From the NCBI RefSeq assembly GCF_009914755.1, contig NC_060933.1: 64,000 nucleotides of DNA; one strand, given 5' to 3'. The position numbers and the translations under genes are program-made. The stretch comes from the human T2T-CHM13v2.0 reference genome, Homo sapiens. The notes under the pieces were generated by a model. That model made no database searches. It was not told where the DNA came from and saw nothing but the letters and a program-made list of their open reading frames with translations. Positions 49,523-55,169 of the stretch are shown here, one piece after another; position 1 is the first letter of the stretch; each line of letters begins with the position of its first letter.

Positions 49523-50204
49523 ATAAGTCACTGCGTCTGGCTTGGGGGAGTTACTGTTGAAGTATTGTCTTTGTATCCCAAAGCAGGCCCTTCTGAAACT
49601 GATGATGTTGATGAAAAACTCCTTCTACTGAAGTCTTTGCAATGTATAATCTTTTCACTTCCATTTTCCTACATACTGTTTCTATTGGTTCCTTGTATTC
49701 CACAGACTGTGTTTTAGTATTTATAAGTATAGTGTTCCTTTTCTATGTGGAAAAGGGAAAATGTATTGGCCTTTTTTTAACATATAAATGAACTTCACAA
49801 GCAACAATTTTTCAAATCAGTTTTCCCTGTTGTGAATCTCGAAGTGGGTACATGATGCACTTTCCCATTTAAGGTAAAGTACACATTTATCCCTTATCTC
49901 AGAACAGTCAGAAGTCAGGTTCTTATTGTATGGTTAGTAATGCAAATATTGATAAGGTCATGTCAATACTTAGTATTTAGAAGAATTCTGAAATAGCACT
50001 TGTTACTCTGTAAGTTTTATGCATTTATTACTTTTTTTGAATTTTTTATAATGTTCCCAAACTTGACTGCCTTACTTCTATCTCTTCTGGCCTCAAGTAC
50101 AACAAGATGTATTTTCTTTAGATTTAGCATATAATATAAATTCAATTGTTTATTTCAGATTTTGAAAGAACAAAGAGGAACTACAGAATCATTGCTTACA
50201 TTGA

Positions 50205-50591
50205 CACCGGCCCTGTTGTCCCAATGGATGGGTTTTTTTTGGATGAACGTCAAAATTGACCCTGCTGTTAAAGCTTGAAACTTGGATCTGTTGTATCTGA
50301 GTTCTCTCCTCAAAAAAAGACCTTCAGGAAGTATCAGATAACTGAAACATACCAGATCACAGCACCACATGCCTCCTGCCCCTCCCTAATTTCTGTTCTC
50401 TTATACATTGTTAAATTTTTTTCCTGCCCCTATTAGTCAAGCCCATGGATTTGAGACTGAGCTTCCAGCTCCTGGGCCGCAGCACCAGGTTAAAGCTTTC
50501 TTCCTTGGCAGTACTTGTCACCTCAGTGACTGGCTTTTTCTCCGATGAGCAGGAGGACCTGGACGAAACCCCTAGTGTTTGGGTAATAACA
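50205..50591 (+). mobile_element. ERV1-class LTR (MER50-like)
   Basis: 3' end GGATTTGAGACTGA...TAAAGCTTTCTTCCTTGGCA...AAACCCCTAGTGTTTGGGTAATAACA. Confidence 0.55.
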
Positions 50592-51863
50592 TGAACGACC
50601 ATCTTAACTGTTATTCTTTATTGAAATTTTACTTTTTAACTACTGGCCTCTTGTTCATTATCTCCCATTCTTTTGACTTCATATCTCTTTTTTCGTTGAC
50701 TTTACAGTCAAGGAACTTGATGCTCCCTAAATCCAAATATTACGGTTAAAAGAAGAGAGAGGAAATGTGTGCAGAGAAAGTGTATTTTACAAATGAATTA
50801 AAGGTGGATTCTGAGATACAGGTTTATAGATTTACCTAGAGTTTTGAGTTCAGGTGAGTTTTCACAATATGCAGTAAGTGGAAAAGAATCCCAAAATAAT
50901 TGTGACATGAAAAAGCTAGATGTTGAAAACCAAAAAGATTTCACTTTGGTATGGCACTTTTAATTCAAGAATACTAGCCACCAAATGAGTTTTTCTGACT
51001 GTAATCATTGCTCTTTAAAAATTGAGATGTATTTATAACTTTTGTTTGACTTTTAGTACAGCTTCTGAATTTAGTTATCAACAGATAGGACAAAATAGAT
51101 GAGCATCTGCTTCCCTTCCCCCTAAACAATGTATTCTTACCGAAATGTAATATATTTTTATTTATACTTGAAGACAGTGTTTTTCAATCTTTTCCATGTT
51201 AGTAGCTCAGATCTTTAAGGACAGAGGATGTGTACTGGGGGCAGTTTGTGGTCTTAATCCTAAGTGGCACTCTGATATTTTAGATTATTTCTTTCATATT
51301 TGTGAGTAAAACTTCTGCTCCAGTAGGATGAGCCTGTTTACCTTGTGACTGCCTAACAGATCTGTTGCTTTATATGCCAGTTTTTAGAAGCAGGCAGATT
51401 ACGTTACTTGGATTAAAATGTTTTTGACACTAAAGGTAGTATCTTAAATTTTTACATATGAGTTACTTTAAGTACAACTTTGCTTAAATTATGGGGATCG
51501 AGTTTCCATAACTTTCACCATAGTGAAAATGGAAAGCAGGGAACATTCCACAGCAAATCCTGAACTTATTTACAGAGTTAATTGAGCAAAGCAGGCATTC
51601 ACACTTGTGTGTGTGTGTCAGTGACAGATGAGCATGGTACTTGTAGCATAATTGTGCTGCTTCAGATTCCAATATCCAGTAATTTTATCATGTAGCTAGA
51701 GTAACTAATATTAAGTCCCCAAGCCTACTTGGGTCTACTGTATTTGTATTTTAAAAGAATGTTTTTAAGCTACCAAATAGACATGTTATATATTTCTTCT
51801 GAATTAGAAAACGTTATTTGGATTAATAGAGTTAATAGAATCATATTTTATGTTTATTATGTC

Positions 51864-52164
51864 TTTTTTTTTTTTTTCCTGAGATGGAGTTTCACTCTCG
51901 TCACCCAGGCTGGAGTGCAGCGGCGCGATCTCAGCTCACTGCAACCTCCGTCTCCTGGGTTCAAGTGATTCTCCTGCCTCAGCCTCCCGAGTAGGTGGGA
52001 TTACAGGCCCCTGCCACCACACCTGGCTGATTTCTTGTATTTTAGTAGATATGAGGTTTCACCATGTTGGCCCAGGCTGGTCTCGAACTCCTGAACTCAG
52101 GTGATCCGCCCTCCTCAGCCTCCCAAACTGCTGGGTTTACAGGTGTGAGCCACTGCACCTGGCC
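51864..52164 (-). mobile_element. AluS
   Basis: Full dimer; TSD TATTATGTCTT. Confidence 0.92.
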
Positions 52165-52368
52165 TATTATGTCTTAAAAGTGCTTGCATCGTCACCTAGA
52201 TTATTTTTTATCTTTCAATGTGAGTTTTTATTGGTTTATATGTTGTTTGTTTTCTTTTTAGGAAGCCATCATTCTTTAGAGGGCAATGACCAAACAGTAC
52301 CAGCAGAAATTGAAGTACCAGCAGAAGGCTAAGAAGGTTAGGAGAAAAAGACATTTTGTATTTTACTG

Positions 52369-52658
52369 TTTTTTTCTTTTTTTTTTTTTAGACGAAGTCT
52401 TGCTCTGTCACCAGGCTAGAGTGCAGTGGCACGATCTCGGCTCACTGCAACCTCTGATTCCCTGGTTCAAGTGATTCTCCTGCCTCAGCCTCCTAAGTAG
52501 CTGGGATTATAGGCACAGACCACCACATCCAGCTATTTTTTGTATTTTTGGTAGAGACCAGGGTTTCACCATGTTGGCCAGGATGGTCTCAATCTTTTGA
52601 CCTCCTGATCCACCCACCTCGGCCTCCCAACATGCTGGGATTACAGATGTGGGCGCTT
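52369..52658 (-). mobile_element. AluS between GTF2I-like exon 11 and exon 2
   Basis: Full reverse-strand dimer; no evident TSD. Confidence 0.85.
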
Positions 52659-53867
52659 GGCCACCTCCTCTTGGGAGAAATGCATTGATTCTGGTTGCCA
52701 CGTGGATTTATTTTGGGAGTGATATTCATCTAACTTCATGGAAATAATACTAGATAGAAAGTTAGCGGATGAATTCTCTATCTGATGAGAGTTTTGGGCA
52801 AATCGAATACCAAGTTACCAAGTTTTGTTTTTTTCTCTGATGCAAAGAAACAATTTGCCAGCCAGTGAAAAACTCTCACAGCTCTGGATGTGAGTTTAGG
52901 ATACTGGATTTCTACCATTCAATTTCTTACTACTTTTCTTGCACAGGGATCATGGCACAAGCTGCAGTTTCCACCCTGCCCATTGAAGATGAGGAGTCCA
53001 TGGAAGATGAGGAGTCCGTTGAAGATGAGTCTGTTGAAGATGAGTCCGCAGAGAACAGGATGGTGGTGACATTGCTCATATCAGCTCTTGAGTCCATGGT
53101 GAGACCTTCTGTTCTAACATTCTGTAATTGGGTAGTACTGGGTGGTAGATAAGGTTGATTTGTTTTTGTAGAATTTATAATTTTATGATTTATAGTTCTA
53201 ATGAGTAGATCTTTTTCTTGAATAGTAATTATGGTCAAACACTTCTGACCAAATGTGCCATGTTGTCCAGCCTGGTCTCAAAATTCGGGGCTCAAGAGAC
53301 CTGCCCACCTTGGCCTCCCAAAATACTGGGATTACAGGTGTAAGCCCCTGAATCTGGCCAGATATTTTTCTTTTTATGGCTGAATAATACTCTGTGTATG
53401 TATATATTACATTTTCTTTATCCATTCACCTACTGATGGGCATTAGGGTTGGTTCTACCTTTTGGCCACTGTGAATAATGCTGCTGTTAAACGGGTGTAC
53501 AAATACCTGTTTGAGTCCCTGCTCTCAGTTATTTTGGGTATATACACTTAAAGGGTGTTGGTGGATCATATAATTCTGTGCTTAATATTTTTAAGGAGCT
53601 GCTAAACCATTTTCCACAGTGGGCTGTACCATTTTACATTCCAAAAGGCAATGCATACAGCTTCCAATTTCTCTATAGCATTGCTGACAGTTAATATTTT
53701 CTGTTTATGTATTGTATTTTTATAGTGTTTGAAATTAATCTGAGGGTTTTTGCTGATACCAAAATATTAGGAAAGGTTTTCCAAAAATAATACTGCTTAT
53801 TATAAAGAATTTTATGTGTTACTTGATGCCCTGTGATCCATTTTCTCAGTAAGAAGAGGAACTTCTT

Positions 53868-54172
53868 GGCTGGGCGCAGCAGCTCATGCCTGTAATCCCA
53901 GCACTTTGGGAGGCCGAGGCAGGTGGATCACAAGGTCAGGAGTTCAAGACCAGCCTGGCCAACATAGTGAAACCCAGTCTCTACTAAACAAACAAACAAA
54001 CAAAAATTAGCTGGGTGTGGTGGCGGGCACCTCTAATCCCAGCTACTCGGAAGGCTGAGGCAGAGAATTGGTTGAACCTGGGAGGCGGAGGTTGCAGTGA
54101 CCGAGATTGCGCCACTGCACCCAGCCTGTGTGATAGAGTGAGACTCCATCTCAAAAAAAAAAAAAAAAAAAA
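53868..54172 (+). mobile_element. AluS (Sg-like)
   Basis: TSD AAGAAGAGGAACTTCT. Confidence 0.9.
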
Positions 54173-54332
54173 TGGAAAGAAGAGGAACTTCTCTCCATTC
54201 AACCTCAGTCCACTGCACCAACTCTTCTGTGTCGGGTTGTGCAGGGGAGAAAGGGAGCTTGGCACCTCTTTGCTGTGTTGAGTTGTGGTAGCCCATCACT
54301 GGGTTGTAAAGTGCATTGCCTCCTCCCCCCCC

Positions 54333-54620
54333 CTTTTTTTTTTGAGACAGAGTCTCACTCTGTCACCCAGGCTCAGGTGCAGTGCTGAGATCTCTGCTCA
54401 CTGCAACCTCAGCCTCCTGGGTTCAAGCGATTCTCCTGCCTCAGCCTCCCAAGAAGCTGGGACTATAGGCACGTGCCACCACACCTGGCTAATTTTTTTT
54501 ATTTTTAGTAGAGACGGTATCACCATGTTGGCCAGGCTGGTGTTGAACTCCTGACCTCAAGTGATCCACCCACCTTGGCCTCCGAAAGTGCTGGGGTTAC
54601 AGGCATGAGACACTGCGCCC
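54333..54620 (-). mobile_element. AluS
   Basis: Full reverse-strand dimer just upstream of the second duplicate. Confidence 0.88.
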
Positions 54621-55169
54621 ATCCACCTCCTCTTTTACTTGGGAGAAATGCGCAGATTCTGGGTGCCATGTGCATTTGTTTTGGGAGTGATACTGATCTA
54701 ACTTATGGAAATAATACTAGACAGAAAGTTAGTGGATGGATTCTCTATCTGATGAGAGTTTTGGGCAAAACGAATTCCTAGTTTCTGAGTCTTATTTTTC
54801 CCCTGATTCAAGAAAACTGTGAATTATCCAGCCGGTGGAAAAGCTCTCACAGCTCTGGATGTGAGTTTAGGACACTGGATTTCTACCACTCACTTTCTTA
54901 CTACTTTTCTTGTGCAAGGATCATGGCACAAGTTGCAGTTTCCACTCTGCCCATTGAAGATGAGGAGTTTGTTGAAGATGAGGAGTCCTTGGAGAGCAGG
55001 ATGGTGGTGACATTCCTAATGTCAGCTCTCGAGTCCACGGTCAGACCTTCTGTTCTCACATTCTGTAGTTTGGTAGGACTGGGCAGTAGATAAGGCTGAT
55101 TTATTTTTGTAGAACTTACAATTTTATGATTTTCAGTTGTAATGAGTAGACCTTTTTCGTGAATAGTAG

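What the first reader, a model, noticed from the sequence alone, without database searches (positions are those of the whole stretch)
49584..55039. GTF2I exons in scrambled order (10, 11, 2, 2): a genomic mimic of a circRNA back-splice
Seen: exon 10-like and exon 11-like sequences precede two exon 2-like copies on the same strand, with an Alu lacking an evident TSD at the 11-to-2 transition. Splicing 52336 to 52947 (AAG|GTTAGG, CACAG|GGATC) joins the two GTF2I frames in phase (...EG-IMAQ), apart from one TAA in the exon 11 copy. Inference: Alu-Alu recombination or a tandem-duplication/circular-DNA junction shuffled the exons. Linear transcripts from here could be miscalled as a GTF2I exon11-exon2 circRNA.
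Basis: partly seen in the sequence, partly recalled or inferred. Interest (0 to 1): 0.7.

Follow-up and report, generated by a model that had tools for sequence, protein, structure and literature searches.

The report
Scrambled ancient GTF2I pseudogene fragment
This is a real but ordinary relic: a piece of an old, rearranged copy of the GTF2I gene, spread around chromosome 9's centromere by segmental duplication and now used as exons of a non-coding RNA.

Summary
Window 49542-52368 matches GTF2I on chr7 (C7:75917088-~75919268, exon 10- and 11-like, about 84%). It is followed by two copies of the exon 2 region (C7:75890903-~75891979, 79-88%), which lies 26 kb upstream in the parent.

The shuffle did not happen here. 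The whole 9.4 kb (49354-~58738) is colinear with a 9q locus (87-94%), four more chr9 copies (95-100%) and a chr2 copy. Older copies on chr10 and chr18/21 carry the same 11-then-2 order.

The chr10 copy keeps the primary joint, C7:75919484|75889807, with no Alu in it. Other copies suggest this is the head-to-tail joint of a roughly 29.7-kb 5' GTF2I segment (inferred).

Two later events shaped the window lineage:
- a 1.95-kb tandem duplication, with its junction at 53258|53259;
- an Alu-Alu deletion. Alu 52369-52658 has the left flank of an intron-11 Alu and the right flank of Alu 54330-54623.

Confusion with a GTF2I circRNA is unlikely: the spliced junction is 70.9% identical to the hypothetical back-splice, with a longest exact run of 15 nt. 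Interest is low to moderate.

The parts
49354..49541 (-). Partial Alu. The left breakpoint of the 9.4-kb duplicon shared with 9q and chr10 lies inside it, at about 49354.
   Evidence: homology to 9q and chr10 starts at 49354; the Alu is full length in 9q and chr10 and truncated in the window, and chr7 has no Alu here.
49542..52368 (+). Block B. A GTF2I-derived stretch running from 40 bp upstream of exon 10 to about 32 nt into intron 11 (C7:75917088-~75919268).
   Evidence: 83.8-83.9%; junction alignment; single-copy family of about 10 loci plus the parent.
49584..49643 (+). Exon 10-like remnant, 60 nt. The acceptor AG is kept. The last base is changed (AAT|GT instead of AAG|GT). It is not in any annotated transcript.
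50201..50610 (.). LTR-like interspersed repeat inserted in intron 10 of the pseudogene lineage. It supplies most of lncRNA exon 50159-50582.
   Evidence: gap against chr7 at 50170-50588; 844 candidates genome-wide, 40 scored; chr7 shows the empty site GCTTACA|CGAAC.
51866..52164 (-). Alu insertion with an 11-bp target-site duplication. It is absent from chr7 and chr10.
   Evidence: the flanking alignments overlap by 11 bp on chr7 and on chr10.
52262..52336 (+). Exon 11-like remnant, used as an lncRNA exon. Both parental splice sites are kept. It carries insertions of 9+9 nt and an in-frame TAA.
   Evidence: (53 of 75 columns identical to chr7), and the hub annotation.
52369..52658 (-). Recombinant Alu with no target-site duplication. 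The left part and left flank come from the intron-11 Alu. The right flank comes from the Alu upstream of exon 2.
52659..53258 (+). Exon-2 unit, copy 1 (C7:75891120-~75891979). The exon 2-like lncRNA exon is 52947-53098 and contains three extra 15-18-nt repeat units.
53259..53360 (-). Truncated Alu monomer. The tandem-duplication junction lies at 53258|53259.
   Evidence: the junction is shared by the window and 9q. chr10 and chr18 show both unjoined partners.
53361..53788 (.). Old L1 fragment that belongs to the pseudogene lineage. It is present at chr10 and chr18 and is not present at this place in chr7.
   Evidence: The L1 identity is by eye and from recall.
53789..54329 (+). Sequence upstream of exon 2 (C7:75890903-75891110), interrupted by a + strand Alu at 53867-54176 that has a 16-bp target-site duplication.
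54330..54623 (-). Alu with a target-site duplication (CCTCCTC...) inserted at C7-equivalent 75891110/20. It occurs only in the 9q/window lineage and is one parent of the recombinant Alu.
54624..55203 (+). Exon-2 unit, copy 2. The exon 2-like lncRNA exon is 54919-55039.
55204..58738 (+). Non-GTF2I remainder of the duplicon. The right breakpoint lies inside an Alu at about 58738.
   Evidence: shared with 9q, chr10 and chr18; also on acrocentric and other pericentromeric copies; part of it is an interspersed repeat.

Best explanation
Window 49354-~58738 is one of five near-identical chr9 pericentromeric copies of a 9.4-kb duplicon. A chr2 copy and an older 9q copy also exist. The duplicon carries a fragment of an ancient, already rearranged, unprocessed GTF2I pseudogene. 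It encodes no protein. Its surviving GTF2I splice sites now serve as exons of the predicted lncRNA LOC102724431.

History. Steps 1 and 6 are inferred. Steps 2-5 are shown by comparing paralogues.

1. An early-primate duplicate of the 5' part of GTF2I (about C7:75889807-75919484, exon 2 to intron 11) became joined head to tail. This put intron 11 next to the sequence upstream of exon 2.
2. The lineage gained an LTR-like element in intron 10, an Alu in intron 11, and an L1/Alu-monomer block upstream of exon 2. Pieces spanning the joint then spread to chr10, chr18/21 and 9q.
3. In the 9q lineage an Alu inserted 280 bp upstream of exon 2.
4. A 1.95-kb segment (Alu monomer, L1, upstream sequence, Alu, exon 2) then duplicated in tandem through a 3-4-bp microhomology joint.
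5. Unequal Alu-Alu recombination between the intron-11 Alu and the first copy's new Alu deleted everything between them, including the primary joint. This left the recombinant Alu 52369-52658.
6. The 9.4 kb was later copied, with both ends inside Alus, into the chr9 and chr2 pericentromeres.
For: Parent and order:
- One search shows colinear blocks at 79-88% to C7.
- One search shows GTF2IRD2 matches only exon 2, at 78-83%, so the parent is GTF2I.

Inherited arrangement:
- Window 49354-58720 is colinear with C9:106651968-106661081 at 86.6-93.7%.
- Four other chr9 copies (95-100%) and a chr2 copy (89-97%) appear in every one of six searches.

Older loci:
- chr10 has B (C7:75917091-75919282), then an Alu, then C7:75919261-75919484, then 8 bp later C7:75889807-75890348 and on to a single exon 2.
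- That joint piece occurs nowhere else. One search gave 5 of 5 candidates scored: chr10 itself, the two separate chr7 parts, and 40-nt stubs on chr18 and chr21.

Recombinant Alu: flanks and 10 of 12 informative sites, including two indels.

Tandem duplication:
- The joint is shared by the window and 9q and is absent in chr10 and chr18.
- The tree places copy-1 and copy-2 clades (94/90 and 99/96) inside one clade (100/97) that excludes chr10, chr18/21 and chr7 (11 rows).

Ages, K2P in intron 10:
- chr7 to window 0.160.
- window to chr10 0.120.
- window to 9q 0.070.

Head-to-tail inference:
- Other copies carrying the same LTR insertion site (chr17, chr18, chr21) run colinearly from C7:75892509 to about 75918495. 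That start lies just past an Alu pair that follows the end of block A in chr7 (75891979).
- On chr18 the + strand order is intron 10 from C7:75918424, exon 11, exon 2, about 30 kb, then intron 2 through the first GTF2I repeat to intron 10 at C7:75918495.
- This amounts to one circularly permuted unit with about 70 bp of overlap.

lncRNA exons come from the hub's annotation table.
Against: - 2 of the 12 informative Alu sites (52479, 52495) are of the other type. Both can be explained as a retained consensus base and a CpG decay.
- The last intron-11-type marker is at 52649, about 10 bp from the Alu's end. The crossover therefore cannot be placed inside the Alu with certainty. A non-homologous deletion ending at both Alu edges is not excluded.
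- A first test against a consensus of 62 chr7 Alus was uninformative (8 shared differences, all CpG-type or in the poly-T, against 43 and 29 private ones).
- For the head-to-tail step I could not read the chr18 sequence between 14.833 and 14.881 Mb. Its colinearity rests on search coordinates only.
- The far copies are 80-82% identical to the window in intron 10, lower than chr7 itself at 84%. A simple tandem-unit model with a clock does not predict this.
- The primary joint lies in T-rich sequence beside a chr7 Alu's target-site duplication and cannot be placed to the base.
- The lncRNA model is a prediction, and I saw no RNA data.
- Exon numbering was not verified.
Confidence: 0.8

Rival explanations
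1. One reading: Alu-Alu recombination at 52369-52658, in this locus, joined a GTF2I exon 10-11 piece to an exon 2 piece and so created the scrambled order.
For: The Alu has no target-site duplication and sits exactly at the 11-to-2 transition. It is recombinant by its flanks.
Against: The 11-then-2 order exists on chr10 with 200 more bases of intron 11 and 1.1 kb more upstream sequence between the blocks. It also exists on chr18/21. The Alu upstream of exon 2 is absent there. The recombination therefore removed sequence between blocks that were already adjacent. The same Alu joint is present in 9q, so it did not arise in this window.
Confidence: 0.04
2. Two independent duplicative transpositions (or one template-switching event) brought two unrelated GTF2I pieces side by side. 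No head-to-tail joint of a larger segment was involved.
For: Pericentromeric duplications are typically mosaics (recalled). The joint on chr10 shows only short T-rich microhomology. Far copies on chr13, chr14 and chr17 have no exon 11-exon 2 piece nearby.
Against: Blocks A, B and the far copies together tile one continuous chr7 interval, 75889807-75919484. They share the same LTR insertion, which chr7 lacks. The chr18/21 arrangement starts and ends within about 70 bp of the same intron-10 point. Two independent breakpoints would fall that close in a 30-kb unit well under 1% of the time.
Confidence: 0.2
3. A retrotransposed copy of a GTF2I circular RNA (a circRNA-derived processed pseudogene), with the exon 11-exon 2 back-splice fixed in DNA.
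For: The non-colinear exon order mimics a back-splice, and the reading phases match.
Against: Introns are retained: all of intron 10, the start of intron 11, and the sequence upstream and downstream of exon 2. There is no direct exon-exon joint and no poly(A) signature at the block ends.
Confidence: 0.01
4. Assembly artefact in a difficult pericentromeric region.
For: The region consists of near-identical duplicates (99-100%).
Against: The same architecture is found at ten separate pseudogene loci with 70-100% graded identity, including a euchromatic 9q locus.
Confidence: 0.01

Closest known systems
GTF2IP family of unprocessed GTF2I pseudogenes. GTF2IP1/P4 lie at 7q11.23, and dispersed members such as GTF2IP2, 3, 5, 7, 9, 10, 13, 14, 18, 20 and 23 are named in PMC13122177 (passages read).
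   Same: Derived from GTF2I by segmental duplication with introns retained. Some members are partial, transposed to other chromosomes and transcribed.
   Different: The exon order here is non-colinear (10, 11, 2, 2). The hub's RefSeq table names no GTF2IP here, only an lncRNA. The passages I read do not mention a scrambled order. I could not check which GTF2IP symbols, if any, are assigned to these loci.
Mosaic pericentromeric segmental duplications with Alu-rich boundaries (the Eichler/Bailey model; recalled, not read here).
   Same: A 9.4-kb euchromatic-type segment is copied into pericentromeres. Both breakpoints lie inside Alus. It sits beside unrelated duplicons (MEP1AP3, ANKRD20A2P, from the hub table). 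Sub-pieces are spread to acrocentric short arms and to chr1, 3, 4, 20 and contig 24.
   Different: Nothing essential.
Alu recombination-mediated deletion (recalled concept).
   Same: There is one chimeric Alu without a target-site duplication, and its two flanks belong to two different Alu insertion sites. Both parents can be identified in paralogues.
   Different: The crossover lies at the extreme end of the element, so a homologous exchange is inferred and not shown.
Non-colinear transcript or circRNA false positives caused by genomic duplication, and circRNA-derived pseudogenes (both recalled; my search found only one general review).
   Same: A linear transcript from this locus carries an exon 11-like to exon 2-like junction.
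   Different: The junction is only 70.9% identical to the hypothetical GTF2I back-splice. Introns are retained, so it is not RNA-derived.

Membership tests
Unprocessed (duplicated) pseudogene fragment of GTF2I | Homology to the parent extends through introns, not only exons | tested here: met
   2.1 kb including all of intron 10 at 83.8-83.9%. The exon 2 flanks match at 79-88%.
Unprocessed (duplicated) pseudogene fragment of GTF2I | The parent is GTF2I and not a paralogue | tested here: met
   a 50-kb GTF2IRD2 region matches only exon 2 (78-83%) and has no block B; the only chr7 hit for exon 11 is C7:75919084. GTF2IRD1 was not compared directly.
Unprocessed (duplicated) pseudogene fragment of GTF2I | The coding capacity is lost | tested here: met
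   an in-frame TAA in the exon 11-like piece, and indels of 18-48 nt in the exons. Only 3 of the parent's exons are represented.
Segmental duplication (at least 1 kb and at least 90% identity) | Other copies of at least 1 kb at 90% identity or more | tested here: met
   four other chr9 copies at 95-100% and a chr2 copy at 89-97%. The 1277-nt query matched them at 94-100%.
Alu-Alu recombination product | A chimeric Alu with no target-site duplication, whose two flanks match two different Alu insertion sites | tested here: met
   the left flank is the intron-11 Alu site (TGTTGTAT duplication intact on chr10 and chr18). The right flank is the right duplication copy of Alu 54330-54623.
Alu-Alu recombination product | The sequence switches from one parent to the other inside the element | tested here: inconclusive
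   10 of 12 sites are of the intron-11 type, up to 52649. The 2 sites of the other type are explainable. No clear switch is seen before the last roughly 10 bp.
Genomic mimic that is miscalled as a GTF2I circRNA | A linear transcript carries the exon 11-to-exon 2 junction | not testable with these tools
   Only the hub's predicted model XR_008488126.1 is available. No RNA reads are available.
Genomic mimic that is miscalled as a GTF2I circRNA | The junction is similar enough to GTF2I for reads to be assigned to it | tested here: not met
   78 of 110 columns identical (70.9%), longest exact run 15 nt, and a 9-nt insertion at the joint.
circRNA-derived processed pseudogene | Exons are joined directly, without introns | tested here: not met
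   intron 10, the start of intron 11 and the exon 2 flanks are retained.

The most novel reading that the evidence does not exclude
The exon 11|exon 2 joint is a fossil of a head-to-tail joint of the first roughly 29.7 kb of GTF2I (C7:75889807-75919484). The joint arose tens of millions of years ago, either from an intragenic-scale tandem duplication or from a circular DNA that re-integrated. It has been lost from 7q11.23. It survives only in dispersed copies: the bare joint on chr10, and a whole circularly permuted unit with about 70 bp of terminal overlap on chr18/21. The probability below is for a head-to-tail origin of either kind. A circular intermediate specifically would be about 0.15.
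Probability: 0.5. Interest if true: 0.4.

Novelty: new member of a known kind. Interest (0 to 1): 0.25.

Why it matters
The value is mainly for annotation. Three exons of LOC102724431 and its near-identical paralogues are GTF2I exon relics that kept their splice sites. A fourth exon is an exonised LTR-like repeat. The RefSeq table supplied for this window does not say so.

The locus is also a clean worked example of how a pericentromeric duplicon can be dated layer by layer. Older paralogues serve as outgroups for the successive layers: primary joint, Alu insertions, microhomology tandem duplication, Alu-Alu deletion, and Alu-bounded dispersal.

For circRNA work the practical message is reassuring. 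The junction is too diverged to pass as a GTF2I back-splice. If the head-to-tail origin is right, the family preserves a very old structural variant of a dosage-sensitive gene region (7q11.23).

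Tried and rejected
1. A "third, inverted GTF2I block" at 9q (C9:106636681-106641286 against C7:75895421-75897673) looked like evidence for a three-piece scramble. A genome search showed it is an interspersed repeat (4227 candidates, 40 scored at 80-89%). I dropped it.

2. I compared Alu 52369-52658 with Alu 54330-54623 against a consensus of 62 chr7 Alus. The result was 8 shared differences (CpG-type or poly-T) against 43 and 29 private ones, which is uninformative. 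I replaced this with the paralogue-based test.

3. I looked for the unrearranged state in the acrocentric/chr3 family (L007, L008). Their homology stops at 52698/52687 and is followed by unrelated, L1-like sequence. They say nothing about the joint.

4. The flank 56171-56721 and the insert 50170-50588 were tested as possible further 7q11.23 pieces. Both are interspersed repeats (755 and 844 candidates).

5. Literature:
- 'GTF2I + pseudogene + pericentromeric + segmental duplication' gave 4 papers, none on this structure (listing only).
- 'GTF2IP' gave 87 papers. I read passages of one (PMC13122177).
- 'chAB4' gave 13 papers, mostly unrelated (listing only).
- 'circGTF2I' gave 2 papers (one on rat cells and retracted, one a list, listing only).
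- A five-term circRNA false-positive search gave 1 review.
- A GTF2I exon 10/12 search gave 1 unrelated review.
- I found no printed description of the scrambled order, but these searches are narrow and supplements were not opened.

7. Sequence of the chr10 and chr18 flanks could not be fetched.

Full report
**Observation**

The window's own assembly can be searched, and the window is C9:40176001-40240000.

I located the parent gene with Pfam PF02946. Six hits lie on the + strand of contig 7 between 75902510 and 75956318. Five more hits just upstream fit the neighbouring GTF2IRD1 (the gene map is recalled).

I ran blastn of window 44001-60000 against 80 kb and then 120 kb of that locus. Hits whose query region matched more than three places were removed, which takes out Alus. 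The surviving blocks were:
- 49542-50169 = C7:75917088-75917756 (83.8%).
- 50589-51865 = C7:75917775-75919079 (83.9%).
- 52165-52328 = C7:75919069-75919225 (83.8%).
- 52670-52999 and 53033-53219 = C7:75891123-75891624 (78.9% and 83.7%).
- 53789-53866 and 54177-54322 = C7:75890903-75891110 (88.6% and 85.1%).
- 54635-55148 = C7:75891120-75891615 (79.5%).

The exon 10/11 block therefore precedes two copies of the exon 2 region, which lies 26 kb upstream in the parent. GTF2IRD2 matches only exon 2, at 78-83%, so the parent is GTF2I.

The exon 2 units are direct repeats spaced 1941-1972 bp apart at 86-90% identity (families D7, D9, D13, D14). Both splice sites of each annotated pseudo-exon align with the parent's sites. 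The reading phases across 52336>52947 match, and a TAA lies in the exon 11 copy.

**The arrangement was inherited, not made here**

Window 49354-58720 is colinear with C9:106651968-106661081 at 86.6-93.7%. That stretch includes the Alu at the 11-to-2 transition and both exon 2 units.

Six separate queries each found the same set of loci:
- four other chr9 copies, at 43.07, 44.39, 77.93 and 79.63 Mb (95-100%);
- one chr2 copy at 95.43 Mb (89-97%).

The exon 11 piece belongs to a small family. Eleven candidates were all scored and gave 12 matches: these seven loci (the 9q locus as two pieces), chr10, chr18, chr21 and the parent.

The exon 2 unit is much more widespread. There were 73 candidates, of which 40 were scored and all 40 matched. 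They lie on contigs 1, 2, 3, 4, 9, 13, 14, 15, 20, 21, 22 and 24. In two of those copies that I read (chr22, chr3) homology stops at 52698/52687, next to unrelated L1-like sequence.

Both ends of the 9.4-kb duplicon lie inside Alus, at 49354 and at about 58738.

**Older paralogues show the primary joint**

I fetched 9 kb around each of the chr10, chr18 and chr21 exon 11 hits. All three have the exon 11 block followed by the exon 2 block on one strand.

The chr10 copy, read in gene orientation, has the following order:
- C7:75917091-75919282.
- An Alu flanked by a repeat of C7:75919261-82, with target-site duplication TGTTGTAT.
- Intron 11 continuing to C7:75919484.
- Then, 8 bp later, C7:75889807-75890348 and 75890688-739.
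- An L1 fragment holding an Alu monomer, which corresponds to window 53256-53866.
- C7:75890903-75891625, with a single exon 2 and no Alu at 75891110/20.

That joint piece is unique. A search with it gave 5 of 5 candidates scored: chr10 itself, the two separate chr7 parts, and 40-nt stubs on chr18 and chr21, where a younger Alu truncates it.

The joint lies in T-rich sequence with short microhomology and contains no Alu. On chr7 an Alu ends 8 bp before 75889807. Its target-site duplication overlaps the joint, so the breakpoint cannot be placed to the base.

**The Alu at 52369-52658**

Its left junction is the intron-11 Alu's insertion site...ACTGTATTTGTTG followed by poly-T. This is clearest in 9q. 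Its right junction, CACCTCCTCTT..GGGAGAAATG, is the right target-site copy of Alu 54330-54623. That Alu has its own duplication (CCTCCTC...) around a site that is empty in chr7, chr10 and chr18.

I looked at sites where the intron-11 Alus of chr10 and chr18 agree with each other, the 54330-type Alus of the window and 9q agree with each other, and the two groups differ. Alu 52369-52658 carries:
- the intron-11 state at 10 of 12 such sites, including both indels, with 9 of the 10 also in the 9q copy;
- the other state at 2 of 12 sites (52479, where chr10 and chr18 share a non-consensus T, and 52495, a CpG).

The last intron-11 marker is at 52649. The exchange therefore lies in the last few bases to about 55 bp. 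A homologous crossover is the economical reading but is not proven. An earlier consensus-based comparison was uninformative.

**The tandem duplication**

Copy 1 ends ...CCAAATGTGC and is followed by CATGTTGTCCAGCC..., the middle of the Alu monomer. Copy 2, chr10 and chr18 continue ...CCAAATGTGC(A/G)TG..GAG..TTCTACAC, and chr10 and chr18 show the monomer intact. The joint 53258|53259 is shared by the window and 9q and has 3-4 bp of microhomology.

A maximum-likelihood tree of 11 exon-2 units gives:
- chr7, chr10 and chr18+chr21 outside;
- one clade (100/97) holding a copy-2 clade (9q + window, 99/96) and a copy-1 clade (9q, window + chr2, chr22 + chr3; 94/90).

The order of events follows. The Alu inserted at 54330, then the tandem duplication occurred, then the Alu-Alu deletion. 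The deletion cannot come first, because copy 2 still has the material that it removed from copy 1. All three events predate the split between 9q and the pericentromeric copies.

**Ages**

K2P distances in intron 10, with repeats excluded, are:
- chr7 to window 0.160.
- chr7 to chr10 0.148.
- chr7 to 9q 0.167.
- window to chr10 0.120.
- chr10 to 9q 0.110.
- window to 9q 0.070.

Against remembered primate divergences, the parent/pseudogene split falls early in primate history. The split between 9q and the pericentromeric copies falls roughly at Old World monkey depth, and the chr9 copies are very recent. These dates are inference only.

**Origin of the primary joint (inferred)**

The 50201-50610 insert is an interspersed LTR-like repeat (844 candidates), and chr7 shows the empty site.

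The same insertion site, with the same flanks, is present in further, more diverged GTF2I copies on chr17, chr18 and chr21. Together with copies on chr13 and chr14, these run colinearly along chr7 from 75892509 through the first GTF2I repeat to about 75918495. Not every copy shows every piece in the listed rows.

Their start lies just past an Alu pair that follows the end of block A in chr7 (75891979). Blocks A and B and these copies therefore tile one interval, 75889807-75919484.

On chr18 the + strand reads as follows:
- intron 10 from C7:75918424, exon 11, exon 2 (14.8276-14.8309 Mb);
- about 30 kb of other sequence;
- intron 2 ... repeat 1 ... LTR ... intron 10 up to C7:75918495 (14.8609-14.8802 Mb).

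This is one circularly permuted unit with about 70 bp of overlap. It is what a copy slightly longer than one unit of a head-to-tail pair would look like, or a re-opened circle.

Three cautions apply:
- I could not read that chr18 sequence, so this rests on coordinates.
- These far copies are 80-82% identical to the window, while chr7 is 84%. A simple clock does not predict this.
- The chr13, 14 and 17 copies have no exon 11 piece.

**Function and the circRNA idea**

There is no coding capacity. According to the hub table, the predicted lncRNA uses the exon 11-like and both exon 2-like pieces with their inherited splice sites, plus the LTR-like repeat as an exon.

Identity to the parent at exon level is:
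- 53 of 75 columns for exon 11.
- 94 of 152 columns for exon 2 copy 1.
- 95 of 122 columns for exon 2 copy 2.

The 50+50-nt junction is identical to a hypothetical GTF2I back-splice in 78 of 110 columns. The longest exact run is 15 nt. Reads from here would not be assigned to GTF2I. Retained introns exclude an RNA-derived origin.

**Comparison and novelty**

Dispersed, partly duplicated and transcribed GTF2I pseudogenes are known (PMC13122177, passages read). Alu-bounded pericentromeric mosaics and Alu-mediated deletions are textbook (recalled). My searches found no description of this scrambled order, but they were narrow. I rate this a new member of a known kind, of low to moderate interest.

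Noticed in passing
window 52986-53050 and 54958-54985: Both exon 2 copies carry extra 15-18-nt units of the (V/M)EDEES-coding motif. Copy 1 is 152 nt and copy 2 is 121 nt, against 104 nt in chr7. This is a small minisatellite-like expansion inside the old coding exon.
   Followed up: partly
window 50159-50582 (lncRNA exon) and 50201-50610 (repeat): An annotated exon of LOC102724431 consists almost entirely of an LTR-like interspersed repeat that inserted into the pseudogene's intron 10. chr7 has the empty site.
   Followed up: yes
G000 C18:14827640-14880225 and C21:11784001-11836530: chr18 and chr21 appear to hold a whole circularly permuted 5' GTF2I unit. Its ends (C7:75918424 and 75918495) overlap by about 70 bp, and about 30 kb of other sequence is inserted in intron 2. 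This was seen from search coordinates only.
   Followed up: partly
G000 C13:18219165-18228458, C14:14366921-14368843, C17:27956424-27968014: Further colinear GTF2I copies, 76-84% identical to chr7. They include the first GTF2I repeat, and all have intact PF02946 matches without stop codons.
   Followed up: no
C9:106654309-106654317 against window 51375-51958: The 9q copy lacks 585 bp that the window has, including the left part of Alu 51866-52164. This is a later deletion in 9q.
   Followed up: no
window 13901-14974 and 22761-23806: Two copies of a roughly 1.1-kb element that also occurs at C9:106641402-106642480 (80% and 78%). The first overlaps a RefSeq 'enhancer' feature (13932-14608). It is probably an interspersed repeat.
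   Followed up: no
window 1788-2264: A repeat that is also present three times near the 9q locus and once in a GTF2I intron (C7:75945170-75945261).
   Followed up: no
L007 and L008 (chr22 and chr3 copies), upstream of the window-52698 equivalent: The widely spread acrocentric/pericentromeric family of the exon-2 tandem pair begins about 40 bp after the recombinant Alu and abuts L1-like sequence. Its chromosome distribution resembles the chAB4 family as I recall it. I did not check this.
   Followed up: partly
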